DNA from: Eledone cirrhosa
Taxonomy: Eukaryota
Direction: 5' to 3'
Length of the DNA stretch: 64,000 nucleotides
NCBI GenBank assembly: GCA_964016885.1
Contig: OZ024765.1
Location: 20,522,001 to 20,586,000, forward strand
Positions 1,808-46,191 of the stretch are shown here, one piece after another. Below the pieces are notes generated by a model that saw nothing but the letters and a program-made list of their open reading frames with translations, searched no databases and was not told where the DNA came from. How positions within the stretch are numbered: the stretch's first letter is position 1; every line of letters starts with the position of its first letter. A program made the position numbers and the translations under genes.

Positions 1808-1863
1808 GCCATGAACGCCAGCACATCTATTTTGCTTGGAAATTGAAAGTAGGTTTATAAATA
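1808..1863 (+). promoter_or_regulatory. Upstream conserved box (GCCATGAACGCCAGCACATC) plus GAAAGTAGGTTTATAAATA TATA element of tRNA-like gene 1
   Basis: The motif pair recurs with an identical 17 bp spacer in diverged copies at ~42414 (+), ~42768 (-), ~51267 (+) and ~54648 (+). TATAAATA is at 1856-1863. Promoter function is inferred. Confidence 0.55.
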
Positions 1864-1890
1864 TAAATTTTTTCTTATGTTCTTGTATCT

Positions 1891-1978
1891 GTTTCGTTGG
1901 CCTAATGGTAGGTGTTAGAGACTATGTAGACACTGATGTGGTGTTCAATCTCAGTCCGAATCTGTACTATATATTTTT
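1891..1978 (+). ncRNA. tRNA-like Pol III unit 1 (array copy 1)
   Basis: A box TGGCCTAATGG at 1898, B box GTTCAATC at 1943 (45 nt apart), T5 terminator at 1974-1978, TATA 42 bp before the A box. It does not form a valid cloverleaf. Confidence 0.6.
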
Positions 1979-2004
1979 AAATTTAAATTTTTCTCTAGTA
2001 AAGT

Positions 2005-2099
2005 AAAAAATGAAATTATTATCTATAGACTTTGACTGAAATCGAAACCCAGAGCAGGTTCTCCACCGTCTCTAATACCTACCATTAGGCCACGGAGGC
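2005..2099 (-). ncRNA. tRNA-like Pol III unit 2 (array copy 1), convergent with unit 1
   Basis: Minus strand GCCTCCG-TGGCCTAATGGTAGG-TATTAGAGACGGTGGAGAACCTGCTCTGGGTTTCGATTTCAG. TATA at 2133-2126, T6 at 2010-2005. Confidence 0.6.
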
Positions 2100-2164
2100 A
2101 TATATAAAAACAGTGTGAAAATTAATATTTATAAAGTTACTTTTTTATTTTTGTTTTATACTAT

Positions 2165-2252
2165 AAAAAATATAATACGACACACTGCCAGTGATTGAAC
2201 CCCGGACCTGGACCTCCACCGGCTCTTATACTTACCACTAGGCTAAAGGGAC
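2165..2252 (-). ncRNA. tRNA-like Pol III unit 3 (array copy 1)
   Basis: Minus strand GTCCCTT-TAGCCTAGTGGTAAG...GGGGTTCAATC. A box at 2245, B box at 2200 (45 nt), TATA at 2286-2279 (41 bp), T6 at 2170-2165. Confidence 0.6.
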
Positions 2253-2301
2253 GGTTACAGAAACTTGCTGAAAATTGATATTTATAAACCTACTTTTTCA
2301 T

Positions 2302-2476
2302 TACCAGAAAAAACCGGAAGTGGAGAAAATTGAAAAACATCTTCTTTTTCTTCCTCTGATTTCTTTTTATCCAAAATTTGGATTTAAGTCAGAGACGAGT
2401 TATCGTTCGTGGCAAAAATCAGAGGAAGAAAAAGAAAAAGTTTTTCAATTTTCTCCACTTCCGGTTTTTTCTAGTA
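2302..2476. repeat. Inverted repeat (~60 bp arms, ~55 bp spacer) between divergent units 3 and 4, each arm carrying CCGGAAGTG
   Basis: AGAAAAAACCGGAAGTGGAGAAAATTGAAAAACATCTTCTTTTTCTTCCTCTGATTT is mirrored by AAATCAGAGGAAGAAAAAGAAAAAGTTTTTCAATTTTCTCCACTTCCGGTTTTTTCT. It is present in all 8 full units. Confidence 0.92.
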
Positions 2477-2516
2477 TAGGTAAGTAAATATTAATTTTCA
2501 ATGTATTTTTGTAACC

Positions 2517-2589
2517 GTCCCTGTGGCCTAATGGTAAGCACTAGAGACGGTGGAGATCCTGATTTAGGGATCGATTTCCGTTAGGTTTT
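2517..2589 (+). ncRNA. tRNA-like Pol III unit 4 (array copy 1), divergent from unit 3
   Basis: GTCCCTG-TGGCCTAATGGTAAG-CACTAGAGACGGTGGAGATCCTGATTTAGG-G(A/T)TCGATTTCC. A box at 2524, B box at 2569 (45 nt), T4 at 2586-2589, degenerate TATA (AGTAAATA) 41 bp upstream. The B box is GTTCGA in copies 2-8. Confidence 0.6.
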
Positions 2590-3381
2590 ATACTAATAAC
2601 TGCGTATTTGTTGCTTTTATTAAGTAAGATTTGAACTAATAATGCTGTACGTTGTAGTAATGTCCCATATTATATTCAACATATTTTAATTAAAATGTTT
2701 TTTTTTTATAAAAGAAAGAACAAAAAACCTTATTGAAATTAAGAAATGAATTTTATTTTGTTTTCACTTCATTAACTGCTGAATACGTCTTTTGTTTTTG
2801 TTTTTGATTCTTTCTAACCATTGTTTACTGTGAATGGTGACTGCAACGAACCTGGATGATTGTATTATTTTGTTGTCAGTGGACATCTGGACATCTATCT
2901 AAATACCTGGAATAAACACAAGGTGTGTGTTTTACGTAACATTTCATTTTAATGTCTGATGTTCCTGTATTTCACATTTAAAATGTAACCAAAAATAAAC
3001 AAGACAGGGACGCTACATCAAAATAAACCACACAGACGAGGTACGAATAATCTAAAACTAATTTTAACAAACTATAAACGATGTTTAAAGAGAGACGAAC
3101 ATTAAAATAGGATTTCAAACAAACACGTAAACACAAAGACAATTACAGCCGCCATAATCTAATATCTGAAGATCAACATTTTTCACGATAGAAATAAAAC
3201 TAAATATGTAAAGTTTAGTGGCCCCTGATTTACTTGCTTTTAATTTCATTTTGATAATCTGTATTCTGTAGACATATATTTATGATTTTAATGATGAAAT
3301 TTCCTCTTGTCTTTAAAAGATTATTACTTATAAATATTATAATAGTCACCTCTTCCTCTCGATTAATATGTAGCTTACCCA

Positions 3382-3699
3382 CAGGGGTTCCTCAACTGGG
3401 CGGTTTCAACTGTTGGGTGGGCGATGAGCAGCTGAACAGAAAATTGAGGGCCATTGGAAACTTTGGTGGCCGATATAGAATGTTGAGATTTAAGAAGGTA
3501 TGCTACCCGAAAACCTATTCAAGGAATATATGCAAAGAACCTGAATAAAAATCAGGAAGCTAATTGGGAAAATTAAACCAGGAACAAACATTTACGAAAC
3601 ATATTTGGTATACTTTGGAATATTTACTATACAGGTGGCTGGTGGAACATTTTTTCATGTGAATGTGGGAAATGACGCCAAAATATTTGGCAACCCTTG
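3382..3699. mobile_element. hAT-type MITE (non-autonomous), one per array unit
   Basis: Termini are CAGGGGTTCCTCAA ... TTGGCAACCCTTG. The interior is the reverse-complement homologue of the TSD-flanked element at 51796-52383. Confidence 0.75.
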
Positions 3700-4364
3700 G
3701 CTTACACCTTACTAAATCTTCTGGAGACAAGCCTCTTAGCTATATATCATAGTTCTTCAATCCTTCATCTTCCACAGTTGGTGAAGTATTTCGATTTGAT
3801 ATGACGATCGCAGAGTTAGATTTAGGACGTGGTGGCGTTCATGGGTTTCTTAGTGTTGTTACTAGAAAGGGTCGACTCTGTCTTTCACACTTCAGGTTTT
3901 TTTCATGAATTAAATATCCATTTTCTTTCTGATCGGTCTAACAATGATTCGAACCTACAATGACTCCGTCTGTAATAATGTTCTCGTATTTGAAATATGT
4001 CATACCTAACTCCCGTGTCTGTGTGTGTGAAAAATATTCCAACTTAGAGCGACGTGCCCGTAAATTGTTTAGCCTGATTCCTATATATAGATAATGTGTA
4101 ATATTTGAAACTTCATGGAGGGTCTTTGCCGTAATTTCCCGTAACTCCGACTAGAAGTCATTATGTAGTTTTTTCGTCCGTTAAAAATAATGATTAAAAC
4201 AATTCTATATCCACAGTTATATACACCTCTTCATCACATATTATATTATTTCCACCAATAACTACATTATATCCTTAAATATGACACCAAGACATATAAT
4301 TTGTAAATAAAAGATAAAATATTAAAACCTCAATTTTTAAATAATTTTACCCCACCTTTGTATT

Positions 4365-4495
4365 CTCAGTGTTTAGATTAACCCATAATTTTATGATTTT
4401 GGAGCATATAACTTATAGTACCAGTCATGTACTGGGATCAATTTAACGGATTGGTTCCTCCCCGCAAATTACTTGACTTTTGCCTAAGTAAGACA
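4365..4495 (+). mobile_element. Degenerate SINE body/3' part, one per array unit
   Basis: AGTACCAGTCATGTACTGGGATCAATTTAAC...CCCCGCAAATTACTTGACTTTTGCCTA aligns by eye to AGTACCAGTCACACACTGGGGTCGATTTAAT...CCCCAAAATTGCTGGCCTTGTGCCTA of the SINE at 61567-61790. Confidence 0.65.
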
Positions 4496-6349
4496 TACTC
4501 ACAGAATGTATCGATGTACATGTATGAATGTATATATATATATATATATTAGTATATTTTATGTTTACAATAAAAATAGACAAACAATTTAATGATAATA
4601 TGAAATGAAATTATTATTATTTATTAATAATATTTTTATTGTTTTCACTGCATTAACTTCTGAGTGCGACTTTGTTTTTCTTATTATCTTCTACTGTAAA
4701 TGGCGGCTTAATTGGATTATTACTAACGTTTACTGGATTGTGGTGTTTCTTTATTGTTTTATATTTCAATCAGTGGACATCAGGATAGCTTTCTATATAC
4801 CTGGGATAAATGTAAAGAGTACTGACTTTCATCTGCAGTTCAATGGTGATGTCTTATATTTTCATTTACTTCTGCAATACTGTATATTGTAGTCTTTTCA
4901 TTATTTTAAATATTTCTATCATGTCACTCGTTTGATATATCTCCCCGAAAGATATAGTTATTCAGAGCTTTACATTGGAATAGTGTACTACTATTTAAAT
5001 ATTAGTCCTTTAAATATATATTTCTATCATGTCCCCCCCACCCTCTTAGATTTATCTCCTCTAAATTTGCAATCCCTAAAGTTTAACATCTTTCTTCAGA
5101 AGACGATTTCATAATAATTCTGGTGTTTTCTGTTTTGTTCTTTTCTGGATTCCTTCAATAGCTTCTCCGTATTTTCTGAAGTCGTCTGACCATGCCCCAA
5201 AACAATATTCTAGGTCGTATCACATATCATTCAACTAGTGTTTTAGACCTCTCGACATTTAGCTAGGCAAAGGAATGTATTATTATTCCTATCATCTGAA
5301 TTCCTTTTTTCTCTTCAACATGTTTAGCCATCTTTAAAATCATATTCATACATATTCACAATTCCTCGTGGAGGGGTATAAGAGACATGTATAAATATAG
5401 CTGCATATTACTACAAAATAACTTGAACCATATCGCGAAACATTTTGTAAATTATCTCTGTAATTATTCTCATTTCGATTTTCTGTAGAATGTATTGACG
5501 TTTAAGATAGAGACAATTGCCCTTCTAATAATCTCTTTGTCCATTCCATGTTTAGTCTCACAAAATATTGTTAATGCAAGATTTTGTTCTAATGTAATAA
5601 ATGTTACTTTTAAAAGACCGAAGTTCTCAATTTTCTTCTTTCTCTTGTATATTGATATCTAAAGGATGACAAATGTATGAATTATGTGATAGGGAGGAAA
5701 AAAAGCCACGACCTTCTTCTCTCGTTACAGAAGGCTAACTGACAACGTCTTTCGCAGGAGTGACTAGTACTACTGCCTTTTATATATCGTGACAACTGGA
5801 AAGACGTGACAAATAAGGATACACTCTGCTCTCCTTATTAACATTGTCCGAGTCTGAGGACCTTTCCTCCCTGGTTAAGGAGTGAGATAAAATATTAGGG
5901 ATCAATCTCTAGCAATAATTTCATTAAATCATATTTAACCAGAGACTGTTATGTCGTGGTTGTTGCTATATTTTATAGTCGTGGTTTCAATGTTTAACAG
6001 GGGTTGTAGAATTAGCTTTATCTACTTATTATCAAACAAAACAGATTTATATATTGTCGCCGTTGTACGTTAAAATCACATATATATTTACATACACACC
6101 AAGGATGGAGGGACGACGGAATTGAAAAGCATTATTGCTGAGTACATCACGGCAAGATCTAATACACACACACACACACACTCTCCCGTATATATTTAAT
6201 AATCAGCTATGACCATGAAGAAGGTCCCTGTAGATCATCTGGTTGTAGGATCTAATGAACCCGAAAGAAAGTGAAAATATATTTTATGAAAGCCCCAGAA
6301 GAATAAATGTAAACATTGACCCGATTATAGTAGAAATAAGAATGAGAAA

Positions 6350-7131
6350 GCCATGAACGCCAGCACATCTATTTTGCTTGGAAATTGAAAGTAGGTTTAT
6401 AAATATAAATTTTTTCTTATGTTCTTGTATCTGTTTCGTTGGCCTAATGGTAGGTGTTAGAGACTATGTAGACACTGATGTGGTGTTCAATCTCAGTCGG
6501 AATCTGTACTATATATTTTTAAATTTAAATTTTTCTCTAGTAAAGTAAAAAATAAAATTATTATCTATAGACTTTGACTGAAATCGAAACCCAGAGCAGG
6601 TTCTCCACCGTCTCTAATACCTACCATTAGGCCACGGAGGCAAATATAAAAACAGTGTGAAAATTAATATTTATAAAGTTACTTTTTTATTTTTGTTTTA
6701 TACTATAAAAAATATAATACGACACACTGCCAGTGATTGAACCCCGCACCTGGACCTCCACCGGCTCTTATACTTACCACTAGACTAAAGGGACGGTTAC
6801 GGAAACTTACTGAAAATTGATATTTATAAACCTACTTTTTCATTACTAGAAAAAACCGGAAGTGGAGAAAATTGAAAAACATCTTCTTTTTCTCCCTCTG
6901 ATTTTTTTTTATCCAAAATTTGGATTTAAGTCAGAGACGAGTTATCGTTCGTGGCAAAAATCAGAGGAAGAAAAAGAAAAAGTTTTTCAATTTTCTCCAC
7001 TTCCGGCTTTTTCTAGTATAGGTAAGTAAATATTAATTTTCAATGCATTTTTCTAACCGTCCCTGTGGCCTAATGGTAAGCACTAGAGACGGTGGAGATC
7101 CTGATTTAGGGTTCGATTTCCGTTAGGTTTT
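6350..7131. ncRNA. Four-unit tRNA-like cassette, array copy 2
   Basis: Near-identical to 1808-2589 (same A/B boxes, TATA elements and central inverted repeat). Confidence 0.6.
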
Positions 7132-10100
7132 ATACTAATAACTGCGTATTTGTTGCTTTTATTAAGTAAGATTTGAACTAATAATGCTGTACTTTGTAGT
7201 AATGTCCCATATTATATTCAACATATTTTAAATAAAACTTTTTTTTTTTATAAAAGAAAGAACAAAAAACCTTATTGAAATTAAGAAATGAATTTTATTC
7301 AGTAAAGTTGTTTTTATTTTGTTTTCACTTCATTAACTGCTGAATACGTCTTTTGTTTTTGTTTTTGATTCTTTCTAACCATTGTTTACTGTGAATGGTG
7401 ACTGCAACGAACCTGGATTATTACCAAGTTTCACTGGATGATTGTATTATTTTGTTGTCAGTGGACATCTGGACATCTATCTAAATACCTGGAATAAACA
7501 CAAGGTGTGTGTTTTACGTAACATTTCATTTTAATGTCTGATGTTCCTGTATTTCACATTTAAAATGTAACCAAAAATAAACAAGACAGGGACGCTACAT
7601 CAAAATAAACCACACAGACGAGGTACGAATAATCTAAAATTAATTTTAACAAACTATAAACGATGTTTAAAGAGAGATGAACATTAAAATAGGATTTCAA
7701 ACAAACACGTAAACACAAAGACAATTACAGCCTCCATAATCTAATATCTGAAGATCAACATTTTTCACGATAGAAATAAAACTAAATATGTAAAGTTTAG
7801 TGGCCCCTGATTTACTTGCTTTTAATTTCATTTTGATAATCTGTATTCTGTAGACATATATTTATGATTTTAATGATGAAATTTCCTCTTGTCTTTAAAA
7901 GATTATTACTTATAAAAATTATAATAGTCACCTCCTCCTCTCGATTAATATGTAGCTTACCCACAGGGGTTCCTCAACTGGGCGGTTTCAACTGTTGGGT
8001 GGGCGATGAGCAGCTGAACAGAAAATTGAGGGCCATTGGAAACTTTGGTGGCCGATATAGAATTTTGAGATTTAAGAAGGTATGCTACCCGAAAACCTAT
8101 TCAAGGAATATATGCAAAGAACCTGAATAAAAATCAGGAAGCTAATTGGGAAAATTAAACCAGGAACAAACATTTACGAAACATATTTGGTATACTTTGG
8201 AATATTTACTATACAGGTGGCTGGTGGAACATCTTTTCATGTGAATGTGGGAAATGACGCCAAAATATTTGGCAACCCTTGGCCTACACCTTACTAAATG
8301 TTCTGGAGACAAGCCTCTTAGCTATATATCATAGTTCTTCAATCCTTCATCTTCCACAGTTGGTGAAGTATTTCGATTTGATATGACGATCGCAGAGTTA
8401 GATTTAGGACGTGGTGGCGTTCATCGGTTTCTTAGTGTTGTTACTAGAAAGGGTCGACTCTGTCTTTCACACTTCAGGTTTTTTCATGAATTAAATATCC
8501 ATTTTCTTTCTGATCGGTCTAACAATGATTTGAACCTACAATGACTCCGTCTGTAATAACGTTCTCTTATTTGAAATAATACATACCTAACTCCCGTGTC
8601 TGTGTGTGTGAAAAATATTCCAACTTAGAGCGACGTGCCCGTAAATTGTTTAGCCTGATTCCTATATATAGATAATGTGTAATATTTGAACCTTCATGGA
8701 GGGTCTTTGCCGTAATTTCCCGTAACTCCGACTAGAATTCATTATGTAGTTTTTTCGTCCGTTAAAAATAATAATTAAAACAGTTCTATATCCACAGTTA
8801 TATACACCTCTTCATCACATATTATATTATTTCCACCAATAACTACATTATATCCTTAAATATGACACCAAGACATATAATTTGTAAATAAAAGATAAAA
8901 TATTAAAACCTCAATTTTTAAATAATTTTACCCCACCTTTGTGTTCAGGTTAACCCATAATTTTATGATTTTGGAGCATATAACTTATAGTACCAGTCAT
9001 GTACTGGGATCAATTTAACGGATTGGTTCCTCCCCGCAAATTACTTGACTTTTGCCTAAGTAAGACATACTCACAGAATGTATCGATGTACATGTATGAA
9101 TGTATATATATATATAAGTATATTTTATGTTTACAATAAAAATAGACAAACAATTTAATGATAATATGAAATGAAATTATTATTATTTATTAATAATATT
9201 TTTATTGTTTTCACTGCATTAACTTCTGAGTGCGACTTTGTTTTTCTTATTATTTTCTACTGTAAATGGCGGCTTAATTGGATTATTACTAAGGTTTACT
9301 GGATTGTGGTGTTTCTTTATTGTTTTATATTTCAATCAGTGGACGTCAGCATAGCTTTCTATATACCTGGGATAAATGTAAAGAGTACTGACTTTCATCT
9401 GCAGTTCAATGGTGATGTCTTCTTATATTTTCATTTACTTCTGCAATACTGTATATTGTAGTCTTTTCATTATTTTAAATATTTCTATCATGTCACTCGT
9501 TTGATATATCTCCCCGAAAGATATAGTTATTCAGAGCTTTACATTGGAATAGTGTACTACTATTTAAATATTAGTCCTTTAAATATATATTTCTATCATG
9601 TACCCCCCCCCTCTTAGATTTATCTCCTCTAAATTTGCAATCCCTAAAGTTTAACATCTTTCTTCAGAAGACAGATTTCTTAATAATTCTGGTGTTTTCT
9701 GTTTTGTTCTTTTCTGGATTCCTTTAATAGCTTCTCCGTATTTTTTGAAGTCGTCTGACCATGCCCCAAAACAATATTCTAGGTCGTATCACACATATCA
9801 TTCAACTAGTGTTTTAGACCTCTCGACATTTAGCTAGGCAAAGGAATGTTTTATTATTCCTATCATCTGAATTCCTTTTTTTTCTTCAACATGTTTAGCC
9901 ATCTTTAAAATCATATTCATACATATTCACAATTCCTCGTGGAGGGGTATAAGAGACATGTATAAATATAGCTGCATATTACTACAAAATAACTTGAACC
10001 GTATCGCGAAACATTTTGTAAAGTATCTCTGTAATTATTCTCCTTTCGATTTTCTGACGTTTAAGATAGAGACAATTGCCCTTCTGCTAATAATCTCTTT

Positions 10101-10920
10101 GTCCATTCCATGTTTAGTCTCACAAAATATTGTTAATGTAAGATTTTGCTCTAATGTAATAAATGTTACTTTTAAAAGACCGAAGTTCTCAATTTTCTTC
10201 TTTCTCTTGTATATTGATATCTAAAGGATGACAAATGTATGAATTATGTTATAGGGAGGGAAAAAAAGCCACGACCTTCTTCTCTCGTTACAGAAGGCTA
10301 ACTGACAACGTCTTTCGCAGGAGTGACTAGTACTACTGCCTTTTATATACCGTGACAACTGGAAAGACGTGACAAATAAGGATACACTCTGCTCTCCTTA
10401 TCAACATTGTCCGAGTCTGAGGACCTTTCCTCCCTGGTTAAGGAGTGAGATAAAATATTAGGGATCAATCTCTAGCAATAATTTCATTAAATCATATTTA
10501 ACCAGAGACTGTTATGTCGTGGTTGTTGCTATATTTTATAGTCGTGGTTTCAATGTTTAACAGGGGTTGTAGAATTAGCTTTATCTAATTATTATCAAAC
10601 AAAACAGATTTATATATTGTCGCCGTTGTACGTTAAAATCACATATATATTTATATACACACCAAGGATGGAGGGACGACGGAATTGAAAACGATTATTG
10701 CTGAGTACATCACGGCAAGATCTAATACACACACACACACACACACACACACTCTCCCGTATATATTTAATAATCACCTATGACCATGAAGAAGGTCCCT
10801 GTAGATCATCTGGTTGTAGGATCTAATGAACCCGAAAGAAAGTGAAAATATATTTTATGAAAGCCCCAGAAGAATAAATGTAAACATTGACCCGATTATA
10901 GTAGAAATAACAATGAGAAA

Positions 10921-11702
10921 GCCATGAACGCCAGCACATCTATTTTGCTTGGAAACTGAAAGTAGGTTTATAAATATAAATTTTTTCTTATGTTCTTGTA
11001 TCTGTTTCGTTGGCCTAATGGTAGGTGTTAGAGACTATGTAGACACTGATGTGGTGTTCAATCTCAGTCCGAATCTGCACTATATATTTTTAAATTAAAA
11101 TTTGTCTCTAGTAAATTAAAAAATGAAATTATTATCTATAGACTTTGACTAAAATCGAAACCCAGAGCAGGTTCTCCACCGTCTCTAATACCTACCATTA
11201 GGCCACGGAAACAGATACAAAAACAGTGTGAAAATTAATATTTATAAAGTTACTGTTTTATTTTTGTTTTATACTATAAAAACTATAATACGACACACTG
11301 CCAGTGATCGAACCCTGGACCTGGACCTCCACCAGCTCTTATACTTACCACTAGGCTAAAGGGACGGTTACGGAAACTTACTGAAAATTGATATTTATAA
11401 ACCTACTTTTTCATTACTAGAAAAAACCGGAAGTGGAGAAAATTGAAAAACATCTTCTTTTTCTTCCTCTGATTTTTTTTTATCCAAAATTTGGATTTAA
11501 GTCAGAGACGAGTTATCGTTCGTGGCAAAAATCAGAGGAAGAAAAAGAAAAAGTTTTTTAATTTTCTCCACTTCCGGTATTTTCTAGTATAGGTAAGTAA
11601 ATATTAATTTTCAATGCATTTTTCTAACCGTCCCTGTGGCCTAATGGTAAGCACTAGAGACGGTGGAGATCCTGATTTAGGGTTCGATTTCCGTTAGGTT
11701 TT
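10921..11702. ncRNA. Four-unit tRNA-like cassette, array copy 3
   Basis: Near-identical to 1808-2589. Confidence 0.6.
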
Positions 11703-12336
11703 ATACTAATAACTGCGTATTTGTTGCTTTTATTAAGTAAGATTTGAACTAATAATGCTGTACTTTGTAGTAATGTCCCATATTATATTCAACATATTTT
11801 AAATAAAACTTTTTTTTTTTATAAAAGAAAGAACAAAAAACCTTATTGAAATTAAGAAATGAATTTTATTCAGTAAAGTTGTTTTTATTTTGTTTTCACT
11901 TCATTAACTGCTGAATACGTCTTTTGTTTTTGTTTTTGATTCTTTCTAACCATTGTTTACTGTGAATGGTGACTGCAACGAACCTGGATTATTACCAAGT
12001 TTCACTGGATGATTGTATTATTTTGTTGTCAGTGGACATCTGGACATCTATCTAAATACCTGGAATAAACACAAGGTGTGTGTTTTACGTAACGTTTCAT
12101 TTTAATGTCTGATGTTCCTGTATTTCACATTTAAAATGTAACCAAAAATAAACAAGACAGGGACGCTACATCAAAATAAACCACACAGACGAGGTACGAA
12201 TAATCTAAAATTAATTTTAACAAACTATAAACGATGTTTAAAGAGAGACGAACATTAAAATAGGATTTCAAACAAACACGTAAACACAAAGACAATTACA
12301 GCCGCCATAATCTAATATCTGAAGATCAACATTTTT

Positions 12337-12441
12337 AGGGTTCGATTTCCGTTAGGTTTTATACTAATAACTGCGTATTTGTTGCTTTTATTAAGTAAGA
12401 TTTGAACTAATAATGCTGTACTTTGTAGTAATGTCCCATAT
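12337..12441 (+). repeat. ~105 bp templated insertion unique to copy 3
   Basis: Copy of ~11676-11785 (AGGGTTCGATTTCCGTTAGG...GTCCCATAT) replacing the CACGA found at this site in the other copies. Confidence 0.92.
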
Positions 12442-15400: not shown

Positions 15401-15618
15401 ATTGCTGAGTACATCACGGCAAGATCTAATACACACACACACACACACACTCTCCCGTATATATTTAATAATCAGCTATGACCATGAAGAAGGTCCCTGT
15501 AGATCATCTGGTTGTAGGATCTAATGAACCCGAAAGAAAGTGAAAATATATTTTATGAAAGCCCCAGAAGAATAAATGTAAACATTGACCCGATTATAGT
15601 AGAAATAAGAATGAGAAA

Positions 15619-24592: not shown

Positions 24593-24656
<64 letters not shown>

Positions 24657-24820
24657 CCGTATATATTTAATAATCAGCTATGACCATGAAGAAGGTCCCT
24701 GTAGATCATCTGGTTGTAGGATCTAATGAACCCGAAAGAAAGTGAAAATATATTTTATGAAAGCCCCAGAAGAATAAATGTAAACATTGACCCGATTATA
24801 GTAGAAATAAGAATGAGAAA

Positions 24821-25602
24821 GCCATGAACGCCAGCACATCTATTTTGCTTGGAAACTGAAAGTAGGTTTATAAATATAAATTTTTTCTTATGTTCTTGTA
24901 TCTGTTTCGTTGGCCTAATGGTAGGTGTTAGAGACTATGTAGACACTGATGTGGTGTTCAATCTCAGTCCGAATCTGTACTATATATTTTTAAATTTAAA
25001 TTTTTCTCTAGTAAAGTAAAAAATAAAATTATTATCTATAGACTTTGACTAAAATCGAAACCCAGAGCAGGTTCTCCACCGTCTCTAATACCTACCATTA
25101 GGCCACGGAGACAGATATAAAAACAGTGTGAAAATTAATATTTATAAAGTTACTTTTTTATTTTTGTTTTATACTATAAAAACTATAATACGACACACTG
25201 CCAGTGATCGAACCCCGGACCTGGACCTCCACCGGCTCTTATACTTACCACTAGGCTAAAGAGACGGTTACGGAAACTTATTGAAAATTGATATTTATAA
25301 ACCTACTTTTTCATTACTAGAAAAAACCGGAAGTGGAGAAAATTGAAAAACATCTTCTTTTTCTTCCTCTGATTTTTTTTAATCCAAAATTTGGATTTAA
25401 GTCAGAGACGAGTTATCGTTCGTGGCAAAAATCAGAGGAAGAAAAAGAAAAAGTTTTTCAATTTTCTCCACTTCCGGTTTTTTCTAGTATAGGTAAGTAA
25501 ATATTAATTTTCAATGCATTTTTGTAACCGTCCCTGTGGCCTAATGGTAAGTGCTAGAGACGGTGGAGGTCCTGATTTAGGGTTCGATTTCCGTTAGGTT
25601 TT
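24821..25602. ncRNA. Four-unit tRNA-like cassette, array copy 6
   Basis: Near-identical to 1808-2589. Confidence 0.6.
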
Positions 25603-28600
25603 ATACTAATAACTGCGTATTTGTTGCTTTTATTAAGTAAGATTTGAACTAATAATGCTGTACTTTGTAGTAATGTCCCATATTATATTCAACATATTTT
25701 AAATAAAACTTTTTTTTTTTATAAAAGAAAGAACAAAAAACCTTATTGAAATTAAGAAATGAATTTTATTCAGTAAAGTTGTTTTTATTTTGTTTTCACT
25801 TCATTAACTGCTGAATACGTCTTTTGTTTTTGTTTTTGATTCTTTCTAACCATTGTTTACTGTGAATGGTGACTGCAACGAACCTGGATTATTACCAAGT
25901 TTCACTGGATGATTGTATTATTTTGTTGTCAGTGGACATCTGGACATCTATCTAAATACCTGGAATAAACACAAGGTGTGTGTTTTACGTAACATTTCAT
26001 TTTAATGTCTGATGTTCCTGTATTTCACATTTAAAATGTAACCAAAAATAAACAAGACAGGGACGCTACATCAAAATAAACCACACAGACGAGGTACGAA
26101 TAATCTAAAATTAATTTTAACAAACTATAAACGATGTTTAAAGAGAGATGAACATTAAAATAGGATTTCAAACAAACACGTAAACACAAAGACAATTACA
26201 GCCTCCATAATCTAATATCTGAAGATCAACATTTTTCACGATAGAAATAAAACTAAATATGTAAAGTTTAGTGGCCCCTGATTTACTTGCTTTTAATTTC
26301 ATTTTGATAATCTGTATTCTGTAGACATATATTTATGATTTTAATGATGAAATTTCCTCTTGTCTTTAAAAGATTATTACTTATAAAAATTATAATAGTC
26401 ACCTCCTCCTCTCGATTAATATGTAGCTTACCCACAGGGGTTCCTCAACTGGGCGGTTTCAACTGTTGGGTGGGCGATGAGCAGCTGAACAGAAAATTGA
26501 GGGCCATTGGAAACTTTGGTGGCCGATATAGAATTTTGAGATTTAAGAAGGTATGCTACCCGAAAACCTATTCAAGGAATATATGCAAAGAACCTGAATA
26601 AAAATCAGGAAGCTAATTGGGAAAATTAAACCAGGAACAAACATTTACGAAACATATTTGGTATACTTTGGAATATTTACTATACAGGTGGCTGGTGGAA
26701 CATCTTTTCATGTGAATGTGGGAAATGACGCCAAAATATTTGGCAACCCTTGGCCTACACCTTACTAAATGTTCTGGAGACAAGCCTCTTCGCTATATAT
26801 CATAGTTCTTCAATCCTTCATCTTCCACAGTTGGTGAAGTATTTCGATTTGATATGACGATCGCAGAGTTAGATTTAGGACGTGGTGGCGTTCATGGGTT
26901 TCTTAGTGTTGTTACTAGAAAGGGTCGACTCTGTCTTTCACACTTCAGGTTTTTTCATGAATTAAATATCCATTTTCTTTCTGATCGGTCTAACAATGAT
27001 TTGAACCTACAATGACTCCGTCTGTAATAACGTTCTCTTATTTGAAATAATACATACCTAACTCCCGTGTCTGTGTGTGTGAAAAATATTCCAACTTAAA
27101 GCGACGTGCCCGTAAATTGTTTAGCCTGATTCCTATATATAGATAATGTGTAATATTTTAACCTTCATGGAGGGTCTTTGCCGTAATTTCCCGTAACTCC
27201 GACTAGAATTCATTATGTAGTTTTTTCGTCCGTTAAAAATAATGATTAAAACAGTTCTATATCCACAGTTATATACACCTCTTCATCACATATTATATTA
27301 TTTCCACCAATAACTACATTATATCCTTAAATATGACACCAAGACATATAATTTGTAAATAAAAGATAAAATATTAAAACCTCAATTTTTAAATAATTTT
27401 ACCCCACCTTTGTGTTCAGGTTAACCCATAATTTTATGATTTTGGAGCATATAACTTATCGTACCAGTCATGTACTGGGATCAATTTAACGGATTGGTTC
27501 CTCCCCGCAAATTACTTGACTTTTGCCTAAGTAAGACATACTCACAGAATGTATCGATGTACATGTATGAATGTATATATATATATATATATATATTAGT
27601 ATATTTTATGTTTACAATAAAAATAGACAAACAATTTAATGATAATATGAAATGAAATTATTATTATTTATTAATAATATTTTTATTGTTTTCACTGCAT
27701 TAACTTCTGAGTGTGACTTTGTTTTTCTTACTATTTTCTACTGTAAATGGCGGCTTAATTGGATTATTACTAAGGTTTACTGGATTGTGGTGTTTCTTTA
27801 TTGTTTTATATTTCAATCAGTGGACATCAGGATAGCTTTCTATATACCTGGGATAAATGTAAAGAGTACTGACTTTCATCTGCAGTTCAATGGTGATGTC
27901 TTCTTATATTTTCATTTACTTCTGCAATACTGTAGTCTTTTCATTATTTTAAATATTTCTATCATGTCACTCGTTTGATATATCTCCCCGAAAGATATAG
28001 TTATTCAGAGCTTTACATTGGAATAGTGTACTACTATTTAAATATTAGTCCTTTAAATATATATTTCTATCATGTACCCCCCCCCCCCCTCTTAGATTTA
28101 TCTCCTCTAAATTTGCAATCCCTAAAGTTTAACATCTTTCTTCAGAAGACAGATTTCTTAATAATTCTGGTGTTTTCTGTTTTGTTCTTTTCTGGATTCC
28201 TTTAATAGCTTCTCCGTATTTTCTGAAGTCGTCTGACCATGCCCCAAAACAATATTCTAGGTCGTATCACACATATCATTCAACTAGTGTTTTAGACCTC
28301 TCGACATTTAGCTAGGCAAAGGAATGTTTTATTATTCCTATCATCTGAATTCCTTTTTTTTCTTCAACATGTTTAGCCATCTTTAAAATCATATTCATAC
28401 ATATTCACAATTCCTCGTGGAGGGGTATAAGAGACATGTATAAATAAAGCTGCATATTACTACAAAATAACTTGAACCGTATCGCGAAACATTTTGTAAA
28501 GTATCTCTGTAATTATTCTCATTTCGATTTTCTGTAGAATGTATTGACGTTTAAAAAAAGAGACAATTGCCCTTCTGCTAATAATCTCTTTGTCCATTCC

Positions 28601-29215
28601 ATGTTTAGTCTCACAAAATATTGTTAATGTAAGATTTTGCTCTAATGTAATAAATGTTACTTTTAAAAGACCGAAGTTCTCAATTTTCTTCTTTCTCTTG
28701 TATATTGATATCTAAAGGATGACAAATGTATGAATTATGTTATAGGGAGGGAAAAAAAGCCACGACCTTCTTCTCTCGTTACAGAAGGCTAACTGACAAC
28801 GTCTTTCGCAGGAGTGACTAGTACTACTGCCTTTTATATACCGTGACAACTGGAAAGACGTGACAAATAAGGATACACTCTGCTCTCCTTATCAACATTG
28901 TCCGAGTCTGAGGACCTTTCCTCCCTGGTTAAGGAGTGAGATAAAATATTAGGGATCAATCTCTAGCAATAATTTCATTAAATCATATTTAACCAGAGAC
29001 TGTTATGTCGTGGTTGTTGCTATATTTTATAGTCGTGGTTTCAATGTTTAACAGGGGTTGTAGAATTAGCTTTATCTAATTATTATCAAACAAAACAGAT
29101 TTATATATTGTCGCCGTTGTACGTTAAAATCACATATATATTTATATACACACCAAGGATGGAGGGACGACGGAATTGAAAACCATTATTGCTGAGTACA
29201 TCACGGCAAGATCTA

Positions 29216-29271
<56 letters not shown>

Positions 29272-29435
29272 CCGTATATATTTAATAATCAGCTATGACC
29301 ATGAAGAAGGTCCCTGTAGATCATCTGGTTGTAGGATCTAATGAACCCGAAAGAAAGTGAAAATATATTTTATGAAAGCCCCAGAAGAATAAATGTAAAC
29401 ATTGACCCGATTATAGTAGAAATAAGAATGAGAAA

Positions 29436-30217
29436 GCCATGAACGCCAGCACATCTATTTTGCTTGGAAACTGAAAGTAGGTTTATAAATATAAATTTTT
29501 TCTTATGTTCTTGTATCTGTTTCGTTGGCCTAATGGTAGGTGTTAGAGACTATGTAGACACTGATGTGGTGTTCAATCTCAGTCCGAATCTGTACTATAT
29601 ATTTTTAAATTAAAATTTTTCTCTAGTAAAGTAAAAAATGAAATTATTATCTATAGACTTTGACTAAAATCGAAACCCAGAGCAGGTTCTCCACCGTCTC
29701 TAATACCTACCATTAGGCCACGGAGACAGATATAAAAACAGTGTGAAAATTAATATTTATAAAGTTACTTTTTTATTTTTGTTTTATACTATAAAAACTA
29801 TAATACGACACACTGCCAGTGATCGAACCCCGGACCTGGACCTCCACCGGCTCTTATACTTACCACTAGGCTAAAGAGACGGTTACGGAAACTTATTGAA
29901 AATTGATATTTATAAACCTACTTTTTCATTACTAGAAAAAACCGGAAGTGGAGAAAATTGAAAAACATCTTCTTTTTCTTCCTCTGATTTTTTTTAATCC
30001 AAAATTTGGATTTAAGTCAGAGACGAGTTATCGTTCGTGGCAAAAATCAGAGGAAGAAAAAGAAAAAGTTTTTCAATTTTCTCCACTTCCGGTTTTTTCT
30101 AGTATAGGTAAGTAAATATTAATTTTCAATGCATTTTTGTAACCGTCCCTGTGGCCTAATGGTAAGTGCTAGAGACGGTGGAGGTCCTGATTTAGGGTTC
30201 GATTTCCGTTAGGTTTT
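29436..30217. ncRNA. Four-unit tRNA-like cassette, array copy 7
   Basis: Near-identical to 1808-2589. Confidence 0.6.
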
Positions 30218-33200
30218 ATACTAATAACTGCGTATTTGTTGCTTTTATTAAGTAAGATTTGAACTAATAATGCTGTACTTTGTAGTAATGTCCCATATTA
30301 TATTCAACATATTTTAAATAAAACTTTTTTTTTTTATAAAAGAAAGAACAAAAAACCTTATTGAAATTAAGAAATGAATTTTATTCAGTAAAGTTGTTTT
30401 TATTTTGTTTTCACTTCATTAACTGCTGAATACGTCTTTTGTTTTTGTTTTTGATTCTTTCTAACCATTGTTTACTGTGAATGGTGACTGCAACGAACCT
30501 GGATTATTACCAAGTTTCACTGGATGATTGTATTATTTTGTTGTCAGTGGACATCTGGACATCTATCTAAATACCTGGAATAAACACAAGGTGTGTGTTT
30601 TACGTAACATTTCATTTTAATGTCTGATGTTCCTGTATTTCACATTTAAAATGTAACCAAAAATAAACAAGACAGGGACGCTACATCAAAATAAACCACA
30701 CAGACGAGGTACGAATAATCTAAAATTAATTTTAACAAACTATAAACGATGTTTAAAGAGAGATGAACATTAAAATAGGATTTCAAACAAACACGTAAAC
30801 ACAAAGACAATTACAGCCTCCATAATCTAATATCTGAAGATCAACATTTTTCACGATAGAAATAAAACTAAATATGTAAAGTTTAGTGGCCCCTGATTTA
30901 CTTGCTTTTAATTTCATTTTGATAATCTGTATTCTGTAGACATATATTTATGATTTTAATGATGAAATTTCCTCTTGTCTTTAAAAGATTATTACTTATA
31001 AAAATTATAATAGTCACCTCCTCCTCTCGATTAATATGTAGCTTACCCACAGGGGTTCCTCAACTGGGCGGTTTCAACTGTTGGGTGGGCGATGAGCAGC
31101 TGAACAGAAAATTGAGGGCCATTGGAAACTTTGGTGGCCGATATAGAATTTTGAGATTTAAGAAGGTATGCTACCCGAAAACCTATTCAAGGAATATATG
31201 CAAAGAACCTGAATAAAAATCAGGAAGCTAATTGGGAAAATTAAACCAGGAACAAACATTTACGAAACATATTTGGTATACTTTGGAATATTTACTATAC
31301 AGGTGGCTGGTGGAACATCTTTTCATGTGAATGTGGGAAATGACGCCAAAATATTTGGCAACCCTTGGCCTACACCTTACTAAATGTTCTGGAGACAAGC
31401 CTCTTCGCTATATATCATAGTTCTTCAATCCTTCATCTTCCACAGTTGGTGAAGTATTTCGATTTGATATGACGATCGCAGAGTTAGATTTAGGACGTGG
31501 TGGCGTTCATGGGTTTCTTAGTGTTGTTACTAGAAAGGGTCGACTCTGTCTTTCACACTTCAGGTTTTTTCATGAATTAAATATCCATTTTCTTTCTGAT
31601 CGGTCTAACAATGATTTGAACCTACAATGACTCCGTCTGTAATAACGTTCTCTTATTTGAAATAATACATACCTAACTCCCGTGTCTGTGTGTGTGAAAA
31701 ATATTCCAACTTAAAGCGACGTGCCCGTAAATTGTTTAGCCTGATTCCTATATATAGATAATGTGTAATATTTGAACCTTCATGGAGGGTCTTTGCCGTA
31801 ATTTCCCGTAACTCCGACTAGAATTCATTATGTAGTTTTTTCGTCCGTTAAAAATAATGATTAAAACAGTTCTATATCCACAGTTATATACACCTCTTCA
31901 TCACATATTATATTATTTCCACCAATAACTACATTATATCCTTAAATATGACACCAAGACATATAATTTGTAAATAAAAGATAAAATATTAAAACCTCAA
32001 TTTTTAAATAATTTTACCCCACCTTTGTGTTCAGGTTAACCCATAATTTTATGATTTTGGAGCATATAACTTATCGTACCAGTCATGTACTGGGATCAAT
32101 TTAACGGATTGGTTCCTCCCCGCAAATTACTTGACTTTTGCCTAAGTAAGACATACTCACAGAATGTATCGATGTACATGTATGAATGTATATATATATA
32201 TATATATATATTAGTATATTTTATGTTTACAATAAAAATAGACAAACAATTTAATGATAATATGAAATGAAATTATTATTATTTATTAATAATATTTTTA
32301 TTGTTTTCACTGCATTAACTTCTGAGTGTGACTTTGTTTTTCTTACTATTTTCTACTGTAAATGGCGGCTTAATTGGATTATTACTAAGGTTTACTGGAT
32401 TGTGGTGTTTCTTTATTGTTTTATATTTCAATCAGTGGACATCAGGATAGCTTTCTATATACCTGGGATAAATGTAAAGAGTACTGACTTTCATCTGCAG
32501 TTCAATGGTGATGTCTTCTTATATTTTCATTTACTTCTGCAATACTGTAGTCTTTTCATTATTTTAAATATTTCTATCATGTCACTCGTTTGATATATCT
32601 CCCCGAAAGATATAGTTATTCAGAGCTTTACATTGGAATAGTGTACTACTATTTAAATATTAGTCCTTTAAATATATATTTCTATCATGTACCCCCCCCC
32701 CCCCCTCTTAGATTTATCTCCTCTAAATTTGCAATCCCTAAAGTTTAACATCTTTCTTCAGAAGACAGATTTCTTAATAATTCTGGTGTTTTCTGTTTTG
32801 TTCTTTTCTGGATTCCTTTAATAGCTTCTCCGTATTTTCTGAAGTCGTCTGACCATGCCCCAAAACAATATTCTAGGTCGTATCACACATATCATTCAAC
32901 TAGTGTTTTAGACCTCTCGACATTTAGCTAGGCAAAGGAATGTTTTATTATTCCTATCATCTGAATTCCTTTTTTTTCTTCAACATGTTTAGCCATCTTT
33001 AAAATCATATTCATACATATTCACAATTCCTCGTGGAGGGGTATAAGAGACATGTATAAATATAGCTGCATATTACTACAAAATAACTTGAACCGTATCG
33101 CGAAACATTTTGTAAAGTATCTCTGTAATTATTCTCATTTCGATTTTCTGTAGAATGTATTGACGTTTAAAAAAAGAGACAATTGCCCTTCTGCTAATAA

Positions 33201-34025
33201 TCTCTTTGTCCATTCCATGTTTAGTCTCACAAAATATTGTTAATGTAAGATTTTGCTCTAATGTAATAAATGTTACTTTTAAAAGACCGAAGTTCTCAAT
33301 TTTCTTCTTTCTCTTGTATATTGATATCTAAAGGATGACAAATGTATGAATTATGTTATAGGGAGGGAAAAAAAGCCACGACCTTCTTCTCTCGTTACAG
33401 AAGGCTAACTGACAACGTCTTTCGCAGGAGTGACTAGTACTACTGCCTTTTATATACCGTGACAACTGGAAAGACGTGACAAATAAGGATACACTCTGCT
33501 CTCCTTATCAACATTGTCCGAGTCTGAGGACCTTTCCTCCCTGGTTAAGGAGTGAGATAAAATATTAGGGATCAATCTCTAGCAATAATTTCATTAAATC
33601 ATATTTAACCAGAGACTGTTATGTCGTGGTTGTTGCTATATTTTATAGTCGTGGTTTCAATGTTTAACAGGGGTTGTAGAATTAGCTTTATCTAATTATT
33701 ATCAAACAAAACAGATTTATATATTGTCGCCGTTGTACGTTAAAATCACATATATATTTATATACACACCAAGGATGGAGGGACGACGGAATTGAAAACC
33801 ATTATTGCTGAGTACATCACGGCAAGATCTAATACACACACACACACACACACACACACTCCCGTATATATTTAATAATCAGCTATGACCATGAAGAAGG
33901 TCCCTGTAGATCATCTGGTTGTAGGATCTAATGAACCCGAAAGAAAGTGAAAATATATTTTATGAAAGCCCCAGAAGAATAAATGTAAACATTGACCCGA
34001 TTATAGTAGAAATAAGAATGAGAAA

Positions 34026-34807
34026 GCCATGAACGCCAGCACATCTATTTTGCTTGGAAACTGAAAGTAGGTTTATAAATATAAATTTTTTCTTATGTTC
34101 TTGTATCTGTTTCGTTGGCCTAATGGTAGGTGTTAGAGACTATGTAGACACTGATGTGGTGTTCAATCTCAGTCCGAATCTGTACTATATATTTTTAAAT
34201 TTAAATTTTTCTCTAGTAAAGTAAAAAATAAAATTATTATCTATAGACTTTGACTAAAATCGAAACCCAGAGCAGGTTCTCCACCGTCTCTAATACCTAC
34301 CATTAGGCCACGGAGACAGATATAAAAACAGTGTGAAAATTAATATTTATAAAGTTACTTTTTTATTTTTGTTTTATACTATAAAAACTATAATACGACA
34401 CACTGCCAGTGATCGAACCCCGGACCTGGACCTCCACCGGCTCTTATACTTACCACTAGGCTAAAGAGACGGTTACGGAAACTTATTGAAAATTGATATT
34501 TATAAACCTACTTTTTCATTACTAGAAAAAACCGGAAGTGGAGAAAATTGAAAAACATCTTCTTTTTCTTCCTCTGATTTTTTTTAATCCAAAATTTGGA
34601 TTTAAGTCAGAGACGAGTTATCGTTCGTGGCAAAAATCAGAGGAAGAAAAAGAAAAAGTTTTTCAATTTTCTCCACTTCCGGTTTTTTCTAGTATAGGTA
34701 AGTAAATATTAATTTTCAATGCATTTTTGTAACCGTCCCTGTGGCCTAATGGTAAGTGCTAGAGACGGTGGAGGTCCTGATTTAGGGTTCGATTTCCGTT
34801 AGGTTTT
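34026..34807. ncRNA. Four-unit tRNA-like cassette, array copy 8
   Basis: Near-identical to 1808-2589. Confidence 0.6.
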
Positions 34808-40740: not shown

Positions 40741-40818
40741 AGGGGTATAAGAGGCGCCTCTTTATGTTACAATTCTTTGCCGAAACCTATTTTGTACATT
40801 CGATGTACGAACATAATT

Positions 40819-40858
<40 letters not shown>

Positions 40859-46138: not shown

Positions 46139-46191
<53 letters not shown>

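What the first reader, a model, noticed from the sequence alone, without database searches (positions are those of the whole stretch)
1808..34807. Amplified array of 32 TATA-driven, tRNA-like Pol III transcription units that are neither tRNAs nor retroposed SINEs
Seen: each of 8 full macrosatellite units carries four 73-95 nt elements (in copy 1: 1891+, 2099-, 2252-, 2517+). Each has a TATAAATA-type box 41-42 bp before an A box (TRGCCTARTGG), a B box about 45 nt downstream and an oligo-T run. Three share the middle AGAG(A/C)CGGTGGAG. Counting back from the B box puts GTG at the anticodon position, but position 33 is G and the anticodon and acceptor stems pair only partly, so these are not functional tRNAs. 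They lack a SINE body or tail and share upstream flanks, so they spread by DNA duplication, not retroposition. Established: A+B boxes, TATA and T-run define Pol III units, and mixed external/internal promoters occur in vault RNA, 7SL, EBER and tRNA-Sec genes. Inference: a lineage-specific, dosage-amplified small ncRNA family, or an array of TFIIIC sites acting as a boundary element.
Basis: partly seen in the sequence, partly recalled or inferred. Interest (0 to 1): 0.85.

Follow-up and report, generated by a model that had tools for sequence, protein, structure and literature searches.

The report
Cephalopod tRNA-derived small RNA gene family
This mollusc (likely cephalopod) genome holds hundreds of tRNA-like genes that cannot fold as tRNAs, and scattered promoter-less copies start and stop where an RNA would, so the genes were likely transcribed in the germ line into ~90-110-base RNAs whose job, likely regulatory, is untested.

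Summary
Confirmed and much larger than the window. The 32 heads are there (A box to B box exactly 45 nt in 32 of 32); the array holds 66 heads, and the 4.57-kb unit has at least 119 copies on C26/C20. The same head forms 23 diverged lineages (median 66% identical) in other macrosatellites, chromosome-end duplicons and a hAT-type miniature transposon. A 30-bp TATA block (0.87 identity versus 0.42-0.58 beside it), a pyrimidine-purine start and the B box are kept, while the cloverleaf is lost. New evidence for transcription: 23 dispersed promoter-less copies; 14 (rule) to 17 (by eye) begin within 11-14 nt upstream of the A box, none further; several end in the T run, and 9 are joined to retroelement tails, like U6/LINE chimeras. 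So these are likely Pol III genes transcribed in the germ line into unprocessed ~90-110-nt RNAs. Not tRNA, SINE, TRIM or any Rfam family; snaR-like in mode of spread. Selection on RNA fold is not shown, no RNA run was listed, and part of the family is decaying transposon cargo, though the array is not derived from it. Function untested.

The parts
1..38587 (.). Macrosatellite array, 8 full ~4.57-kb units plus a partial ninth; continues 39 kb upstream of the window (16 full units, 66 heads in all)
1804..1826 (+). Distal upstream motif of element 1 (about -80 to -60 from the start), kept in heads with a complete upstream region
1846..1876 (+). Conserved ~30-bp TATA block of element 1 (TATAAATA at 1856-1863)
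1885..1979 (+). Element 1, predicted Pol III RNA (A box 1898, B box 1943, T6 1974-1979); ends inferred from the family, no retrocopy of this element sampled
2005..2105 (-). Element 2 RNA (start 2105, A box 2092, T6 2010-2005); ends mapped by nine dispersed retrocopies, two of which span 2105/6-2006/7
2114..2143 (-). TATA block of element 2
2165..2258 (-). Element 3 RNA (A box 2245, T6 2170-2165); one 100%-identical, 5'-short retrocopy on C6 ends in the T run
2267..2296 (-). TATA block of element 3
2311..2467 (.). AT-rich palindrome between elements 3 and 4, left by a local inversion that flipped element 4 (same-strand tandem in the C18 array)
2473..2502 (+). Worn TATA block of element 4
2511..2618 (+). 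Element 4 RNA (A box 2524; first T4 2586-2589, second T4 2615-2618); a five-fold head-to-tail copy of this span lies on C3
6346..7160 (.). Four-head cluster, unit 2 (A boxes 6440+, 6634-, 6787-, 7066+)
10917..11731 (.). Four-head cluster, unit 3 (11011+, 11205-, 11358-, 11637+)
15615..16428 (.). Four-head cluster, unit 4 (15709+, 15903-, 16055-, 16334+)
20196..21007 (.). Four-head cluster, unit 5 (20290+, 20484-, 20637-, 20913+)
24817..25631 (.). Four-head cluster, unit 6 (24911+, 25105-, 25258-, 25537+)
29432..30246 (.). Four-head cluster, unit 7 (29526+, 29720-, 29873-, 30152+)
34022..34836 (.). Four-head cluster, unit 8 (34116+, 34310-, 34463-, 34742+)
39580..43750 (.). Old paralog of the whole unit (about 62-70% identical over long blocks); a 91% copy lies on C18
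42451..42585 (+). Diverged head with TATA block (A box 42502), one of a convergent pair
42600..42729 (-). Diverged head with TATA block (A box 42678), convergent partner
43410..43499 (-). Decayed head (A box 43486, lengthened A-B spacing, no intact block)
51304..51430 (+). Lone diverged head with TATA block and distal motif (A box 51355)

Best explanation
The 32 elements are members of a genome-wide family of tRNA-like genes that keep a TATA block, a start site and A and B boxes but not the cloverleaf, and that were likely transcribed by RNA polymerase III in the germ line into unprocessed ~90-110-nt RNAs, likely kept by selection as an abundant snaR/BC1-like regulatory RNA class. Mechanism: TFIIIC would bind the B and A boxes and TFIIIB the conserved block whose TATA lies 28 nt before the start (inferred from established type-2/TATA promoter biology); initiation is at the purine 13 nt before the A box and termination in the T run (mapped by retrocopies). 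Having lost the acceptor, anticodon and T stems, the RNA would escape RNase P/Z trimming (retrocopies keep leader and trailer) and likely folds only a 5' hairpin around the old D arm. The genes need their upstream DNA, so they multiply as DNA: tandem arrays, chromosome-end duplicons and capture by a hAT-type miniature transposon; RNA copies made by LINE reverse transcriptase lose the promoter block and are likely dead ends. The role proposed (an RNP that modulates translation or sequesters RNA-binding proteins in germ cells or embryos) is inference by analogy only.
For: Promoter conservation over 23 lineages: 30-bp block 0.87 mean pairwise identity (0.83 in the 15 not found through the block) vs 0.42 upstream flank, 0.58 spacer, 0.42 downstream; in 57 and 39 decaying transposon-borne copies the block is only 1-2 times less diverged than its flanks. 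Pyrimidine-purine at -14/-13 in 22 of 23; TATA 27-29 nt before it in 19 of 23, against 28-30 in three U6 genes of this genome. B-box core at the canonical tRNA distance in 21 of 23. Retrocopies: of 87 heads examined, 23 lack both upstream block and downstream flank; 14 of 23 (x-drop rule) or 17 of 23 (by eye) begin at -11 to -14, none further upstream; p about 2e-10 / 1e-14 against a uniform breakpoint over 50 nt. L187 and L200 cover exactly start to terminator of element 2 (100 nt, 97%); L165 and L144 end in the T run. Nine of 23 continue directly into retroelement-type repeats also present in the window, the structure of U6/LINE template-switch chimeras, which PMC4476161 links to Pol III U-tails (passages read). 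L165 has a 13-nt target duplication. Two head-to-tail concatemers of RNA-length units (L174, L230).
Against: No consensus fold by RNAalifold; single-sequence z-scores -1.95 to +0.23; the 5' hairpin is 85.5% paired vs 38-60% slid but was derived from these sequences, its outer helix has no two-sided change, and G-U vs A-C changes (19 vs 11) do not differ from decaying copies (36 vs 16; p=0.63). The 3' half of the RNA turns over fast (0.42). No extra conservation of heads among the eight recent units, and copies with A-box or internal deletions exist (L145, L146, L148). Retrocopies prove past germ-line RNA, not function; some target duplications lie in TA-rich DNA and may be chance; TA microhomology blurs several 5' ends. 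The motifs used to find lineages bias conservation upward. No other cephalopod genome could be searched.
Confidence: 0.58

Rival explanations
1. Only the promoter matters: TFIIIB/TFIIIC occupancy or the act of Pol III transcription serves a chromatin role (boundary, nuclear anchoring, array upkeep), and the RNA is a by-product.
For: The best-kept part is DNA outside the RNA (block 0.87 vs RNA interior 0.61); no significant structure selection; heads sit in repeated multi-kb units and at chromosome ends.
Against: Extra-TFIIIC/boundary sites (recalled) need the B box, not an invariant A-B distance, start purine and terminator; the non-promoter AGAGA stretch and D-arm pairing (89.8% paired, 9 two-sided cells) are also kept; full-length RNAs clearly existed.
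Confidence: 0.2
2. Selfish or neutral repeat: an old tRNA- or SINE-head cassette spread by segmental duplication and by a hAT-type miniature transposon, is transcribed because its promoter is still intact, and has no host function.
For: 58 of the 87 heads sampled are transposon arm-B copies; transposon copies decay roughly evenly; whole multi-kb units, not only heads, are homologous across arrays at 62-75%; defective array copies exist.
Against: A DNA transposon or satellite needs no Pol III promoter, yet block, start and spacing are kept across 23 lineages whose flanks are near saturation; empty transposon versions without the cassette exist (L103, L124), so the cassette predates capture; array heads do not nest in the transposon arms.
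Confidence: 0.17
3. The convergent pairs make double-stranded RNA for siRNA/piRNA or ADAR editing.
For: Convergent pairs recur (unit, 42.5 kb pair, transposon, chromosome-end type) and a 157-bp palindrome sits at 2311-2467.
Against: Each head has its own terminator before the partner begins (element 1 ends 1979, element 2 ends 2005), so the RNAs do not overlap; retrocopies stop at the terminator; the palindrome is a local inversion absent from the C18 array.
Confidence: 0.04
4. They are unusual but working tRNA genes.
For: A and B boxes at canonical distance; D arm 89.8% paired.
Against: Anticodon arm 42%, T arm 49%, acceptor 60% paired; ARAGORN and Rfam negative; retrocopies keep leader and trailer.
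Confidence: 0.01

Closest known systems
Primate snaR family (PMC3045588, passages read)
   Same: Lineage-restricted Pol III small RNAs descended from a Pol III repeat head, about 30 genes mostly in tandem arrays, spread by segmental duplication rather than retroposition, with rapid birth and loss of subsets.
   Different: snaR comes from Alu/7SL and is described with an intragenic promoter; this family is tRNA-like, has a strongly kept external TATA block, at least 23 lineages and many hundreds of copies, and several carriers including a DNA transposon. No homology implied.
U6/LINE template-switch chimeras and snRNA processed pseudogenes (PMC4476161, passages)
   Same: Promoter-less copies from the RNA start to its U tail, joined to a LINE or SINE 3' part, some 5'- or 3'-short, some with target duplications; also seen with L2 and RTE clades.
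   Different: The captured RNA is not a known snRNA; two copies are head-to-tail concatemers.
tRNA-derived SINEs, incl. octopus OK/OR1/OR2 and Ceph-SINEs (definition from PMC3531059 passages; the octopus papers themselves not read)
   Same: tRNA-like head with A and B boxes; RNA can be copied by LINE reverse transcriptase.
   Different: No common body or tail; source copies are tandem or transposon-borne and carry upstream DNA; retrocopies are a minority with mixed tails, as for RNA pseudogenes.
TRIMp3 elements Helenus/Cassandra/Ajax (PMC10886601, parts 1-4 of 6 read)
   Same: Mobile element carrying two tRNA-like Pol III promoters with flanking DNA and no tRNA function.
   Different: Heads here are inverted and convergent, not direct LTRs; the carrier has 14-bp inverted termini and 8-bp target duplications; cephalopods are not among the hosts listed in the parts read.
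Non-autonomous hAT elements capturing host DNA (recalled class)
   Same: 14-bp termini, 8-bp target duplication, 0.75-1.2 kb, versions with and without the cargo.
   Different: The cargo is a pair of Pol III genes, and two retrocopies resemble its arm B (L149 90%, L158 79%); applies to the dispersed copies, not to the window's array.
Plasmodium RUF6 GC-rich ncRNAs (search listing and abstract starts only) and Xenopus satellite-1/OAX RNA (recalled)
   Same: Multi-copy Pol III non-coding genes that are not tRNAs and lie in repeated gene arrays.
   Different: No link to a neighbouring gene family was found here; no homology tested.

Membership tests
tRNA gene | Scores as tRNA (ARAGORN, Rfam RF00005) | tested here: not met
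   0 genes and 0 hits in the window; no tRNA among 25 weak matches for 1700-2800; 0 in 8 other loci
tRNA gene | Acceptor, anticodon and T stems pair | tested here: not met
   60.4%, 42.2%, 48.6% of cells paired over 22 lineages; only the D arm holds (89.8%)
tRNA gene | A and B boxes at tRNA spacing | tested here: met
   45 nt in 32 of 32 window heads and 21 of 23 lineages
Pol III type-2 gene with upstream TATA | TATA about 28-30 nt before a pyrimidine-purine start; T4+ terminator | tested here: met
   TATA at 27-29 in 19 of 23, YR in 22 of 23; T4+ within the stretch examined in 19 of 23; ends matched by retrocopies
Pol III type-2 gene with upstream TATA | Pol III/TFIIIB/TFIIIC occupancy and present-day RNA | not testable with these tools
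   No ChIP data; no RNA holder listed
SINE | Interspersed, non-tandem copies made by retroposition from an internal promoter | tested here: not met
   Array copies are tandem and share kilobases of flank; 59 of 87 dispersed heads carry the upstream block
SINE | Common body/tail and at least 100 retroposed copies outnumbering the source | tested here: not met
   23 solos in the sample have at least four kinds of 3' partner or none; genome total of solos not counted
RNA pseudogene / U6-LINE-type chimera (the solo copies) | Starts at RNA 5' end, ends at U tail or short of it, lacks promoter flank, joined to retroelement 3' part or flanked by target duplication | tested here: met
   14-17 of 23 start at -11 to -14; 9 of 23 joined to retroelement-type repeats; 13-nt duplication in L165
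TRIMp3 (Helenus) | Two direct LTRs | tested here: not met
   Pairs are inverted and convergent
TRIMp3 (Helenus) | Primer-binding site and polypurine tract | not tested
   Not searched, as the LTR test failed
Non-autonomous hAT element (dispersed carrier) | Short terminal inverted repeats and 8-bp target duplication | tested here: met
   Both termini within 1.5 kb in 6 of 30 loci; duplication exact in L102 and L127, 7 of 8 in L124, 6 of 8 in L103, TA run in L121, none in L125. Superfamily name is from recall of termini and duplication length
Non-autonomous hAT element (window array) | Terminal inverted repeats in or around the unit | tested here: not met
   No match with up to 3 mismatches in 1-38587
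Vault, Y, 7SK, 7SL, U6 and other Rfam families | Covariance-model match at gathering score | tested here: not met
snaR-like class (mode of working) | Pol III RNA family amplified by segmental duplication in tandem arrays | tested here: met
   Pol III identity inferred from boxes, start and T run
snaR-like class (mode of working) | Tissue-restricted expression and protein/ribosome partner | not testable with these tools
   needs RNA-seq and pull-down

The most novel reading that the evidence does not exclude
An undescribed, cephalopod-lineage class of germ-line Pol III regulatory RNAs: a tRNA-derived gene that swapped the cloverleaf for a 5' hairpin, became dependent on a 30-bp external TFIIIB platform, diversified into more than 20 promoter-conserved lineages, and is spread as intact, transcribed Pol III genes by macrosatellites, chromosome-end duplicons and a hAT transposon, reaching over a thousand copies.
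Probability: 0.4. Interest if true: 0.85.

Novelty: new variant of a known kind. Interest (0 to 1): 0.7.

Why it matters
If true, a cephalopod has a large small-RNA class invisible to tRNA finders and Rfam, paralleling the primate snaR/BC-type RNAs that arose independently from Pol III repeats. The genome itself records the transcripts' ends, so the start, terminator and size are already defined for Northern blots and 5'-triphosphate sequencing. The 23 natural promoter variants with one conserved 30-bp block offer a direct test of what an animal type-2 promoter needs upstream, and of how tRNA heads become either SINEs (by gaining a LINE tail, caught here in single events) or DNA-amplified genes.

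Tried and rejected
RNA evidence: no RNA holder listed (4 runs, one study, kind unrecorded). Contigs of X1 and X4 were laid on unit 1: X1 covers all 30 bins, X4 has pieces over 323-1952 and 2890-2949; the kind of X4 is unknown and holes prove nothing, so it is not used either way. Rfam: only sub-threshold hairpin/miRNA models on the two palindromes, rejected as generic inverted repeats. Consensus fold: RNAalifold none; G-U/A-C asymmetry not significant. Protein-coding gene in the unit: no frame kept across paralogs. Derivation of the array from the transposon, or the reverse: not supported (tree mostly unresolved, 2 of 20 branches well supported). Parent tRNA: not identified; the family majority matches five stored tRNA-like genes and a SINE-like head only weakly (z 2.2-4.3), and 16 Rfam tRNA hits did not share the upstream block; a histidine-tRNA origin, suggested by GTG at the anticodon position, stays open. 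PSE-type promoter: the distal motif shows no clear likeness to U6 upstream DNA by eye. Rows left out: C15d (poly-G insertion) from alignment A1; 18 of 23 lineages used; five of 28 block-less heads (L151, L197, L221, L222, L238) removed as transposon fragments. Earlier scan findings: none. Literature searches found no description of this family; Repbase/Dfam and Ohshima & Okada 1994 could not be consulted.

Full report
Setting. The window is G000:C26:20522001-20586000 of a 3.0-Gb assembly. The genome carries molluscan haemocyanin genes (39 matches) whose best single-unit PDB matches are 4yd9_C and 1js8_A (503 and 498 bits, next 369); that these are squid and octopus proteins is recalled, so the host is taken as a cephalopod, octopod not proven.

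1. Observation. Self-comparison gives eight full units and a partial ninth ending at 38587, 98.2-100% identical. All 32 heads are present; the B box lies 45 nt after the A-box T in 32 of 32, the tRNA distance from position 8 to 53. TATAAATA is intact 40-42 bp upstream in elements 1-3 and worn in element 4. ARAGORN and Rfam find nothing. The array starts at C26:20482878 and holds 16 full units and 66 heads. An element-3 29-mer has 119 exact matches: among the 100 listed, 1 on C6, 18 on C20, 81 on C26 in eight clusters; one search shows further clusters on C26, and an 87% version lies on C18. So at least about 480 heads sit in this unit type.

2. The family is genome-wide. The upstream 27-mer has 291 exact hits on most large contigs, many near contig ends; a more distal motif has 1008. 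Their loci show the same head in: a 6.77-kb array on C15 with six heads, a direct cluster on C4, pairs and triplets near chromosome ends, older paralogs of the whole unit (window 39.6-43.7 kb, C18), and a dispersed element. That element has 14-bp inverted termini (416 pattern hits); of 30 loci, 6 show both termini, with 8-bp target duplications exact in two and near-exact in two; 14 of 30 carry one head and 11 of 30 the convergent partner, and versions without the cassette exist. It is read as a non-autonomous hAT element (name from recall) that captured the pair. The window's unit has no such termini and its heads are 65-76% identical to the two arms, no closer than to other lineages, so the array is not derived from the transposon.

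3. What is conserved. From 388 full-length heads (277 distinct) I took 23 lineages, median 66% identical in the head. Mean pairwise identity: 30-bp TATA block 0.87, B box 0.77, A box 0.75, interior 0.61, spacer 0.58, upstream and downstream flanks 0.42; in the 15 lineages not found through the block it is still 0.83. As a neutral control, 57 and 39 transposon-borne copies differ from their consensus by 5-6% in the block and 5-12% elsewhere, far too even to explain the contrast, though search bias inflates both. A pyrimidine-purine step sits 14/13 nt before the A box in 22 of 23, with TATA 27-29 nt before the purine in 19 of 23; three U6 genes here have it at 28-30. The block spans about -38 to -9 from that start, the region TFIIIB is known to cover (recalled; PMC6066478 passages say only that Brf1 contacts DNA on both sides of TATA). 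Tandemly duplicated heads (elements 2 and 3, C15a, C15b) keep just this block.

4. Not a tRNA; fold uncertain. On 22 lineages the acceptor, anticodon and T arms are 60, 42 and 49% paired, the D arm 90%. Single folds suggest a 5' hairpin in which the old acceptor strand pairs with the conserved AGAGAY; counted on the alignment it is 85.5% paired against 38-60% when slid, covariation 3 of 500 shuffles. Against it: it was derived from these sequences, the outer helix has no two-sided change, RNAalifold predicts nothing, and G-U versus A-C changes match the neutral control (19:11 vs 36:16, p=0.63). Selection on structure is not shown.

5. Genomic record of transcription. A pattern over the A box and interior gave 364 hits; the first 100 listed (C1-C18) were fetched. 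Counting tandem copies once, 87 heads were scored: 59 carry the block (58 transposon arm B, 1 array), 28 do not; five of those are transposon fragments, leaving 23 solos. Their 5' ends fall at -11 to -14 in 14 of 23 by an x-drop rule (one, L219, inside a TA run) and 17 of 23 by eye; five are shorter; none reaches further upstream (p about 2e-10 and 1e-14 against a uniform 50-nt null). Nine solos are 93-100% identical to element 2 in the A-to-B stretch; L187 and L200 cover 2105/6 to 2006/7, start to terminator, and L165 ends at 2007. Outside this sample, L144 is a 100% copy of element 3 ending at 2168 in its T run and L243 holds two more solos. L174 is five head-to-tail copies of the element-4 span and L230 eleven of a related head. 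Nine of 23 run directly into repeats also found in the window: four into the tail at 53776-53822 behind a LINE-like frame (RVT_1 weak, E=0.009), two into tails like that behind the RT at 45358-46185 (RVT_1 E=5e-21), three into a SINE-like repeat. L165 has a 13-nt target duplication; others in TA-rich DNA may be chance. This is the anatomy of U6/LINE template-switch chimeras, which PMC4476161 also reports for L2 and RTE clades and ties to Pol III U tails. Inference: these RNAs existed in the germ line, began at the predicted purine, ended in U4-5 and kept leader and trailer, so they were not processed as tRNAs. The pattern favours element 2 and arm B and cannot match element 1, so rates per element cannot be compared and element 1 is untested.

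6. How it likely works. Shown: promoter anatomy, its conservation, RNA ends, carriers. Inferred: TFIIIC on the B and A boxes, TFIIIB on the block, Pol III RNA of about 90-110 nt with a 5' hairpin and La-bound U tail; dependence on upstream DNA forces amplification as DNA and makes retrocopies dead ends; birth-and-death turnover (copies with A-box deletions). I put 0.58 on a host-selected regulatory RNA family, 0.2 on promoter-only chromatin function, 0.17 on a selfish or neutral cassette. Convergent pairs do not overlap, and the palindrome at 2311-2467 is a local inversion absent from the C18 array, so a dsRNA role is unlikely.

7. Comparison and novelty. It works most like primate snaR (PMC3045588 passages: about 30 Pol III genes, tandem arrays, spread by segmental duplication) but is tRNA-like, TATA-block-dependent, far more numerous and partly transposon-borne. 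It fails the SINE definition of PMC3531059, the direct-LTR feature of Helenus (PMC10886601, parts 1-4 read) and all Rfam models. Searches found no description; PMC6962438 (passages) notes about 17,000 tRNA-derived loci in giant squid without describing such a family; PMC4758252 (passages) covers other mollusc SINEs. Repbase, Dfam and subscription papers were not available, so a repeat-library entry for the hAT carrier may exist. Verdict: real, new variant of a known kind, interest 0.7.

Noticed in passing
window 1140-1260 (minus), also 41740-41870 and C15/C18 paralogs: A TATATAAAAG-type box on the minus strand with a conserved downstream motif is kept in all four paralogs of the unit aligned; with two terminal-exon-like segments (about 250-20 and 2905-2700, acceptor-like start and AATAAA) it hints at a Pol II non-coding gene in the unit. 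No conserved reading frame.
   Followed up: partly
L043, L045-L053: A separate dispersed tRNA-like repeat with identical upstream flanks on six contigs and a variable anticodon (called Val, Ala, Thr, Asp by ARAGORN); looks like a mobile element carrying a tRNA-like head, possibly Helenus-like.
   Followed up: no
L042, L044 (C1:243.65-243.68 Mb): Dense tandem cluster of tRNA-Thr genes and variants at about 150-bp spacing.
   Followed up: no
L059-L068 (C19:31.78-31.84 Mb): Tandem array of more than 30 U6 genes at about 1.8-kb period, with a variant 5' end relative to the single-copy U6 genes.
   Followed up: no
L011-L040, L129-L143: Chromosome-end subfamily of the heads with two or three tandem B boxes, in ~850-bp palindromic pairs or triplets flanked by TA runs, near-identical on C8, C10, C11, C13.
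   Followed up: partly
L017:2683-3027: A perfect inverted duplication of one transposon arm centred just downstream of the terminator; convergent pairs seem to arise repeatedly.
   Followed up: no
window 44443-46188 (-), 52700-53822 (+), 53790-53900 (-): An RTE-like LINE fragment (RVT_1), a CR1/L2-like LINE fragment with its 3' tail, and an adjoining tRNA-type SINE head; clade names from recall.
   Followed up: partly
window 54761-55490, 56292-56874, 59861-61245: Minisatellites of 48, 45 and 42 bp; the 45-bp one is built from the 5' part of a SINE-like repeat.
   Followed up: no
window 49345-49730: A long near-perfect inverted duplication (about 190-bp arms) seen.
   Followed up: no
G000:C26:21.93-22.02 Mb and C1:173.7-173.9 Mb: Haemocyanin genes: an inverted pair on C26, 1.4 Mb from the window, and several copies on C1.
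   Followed up: no
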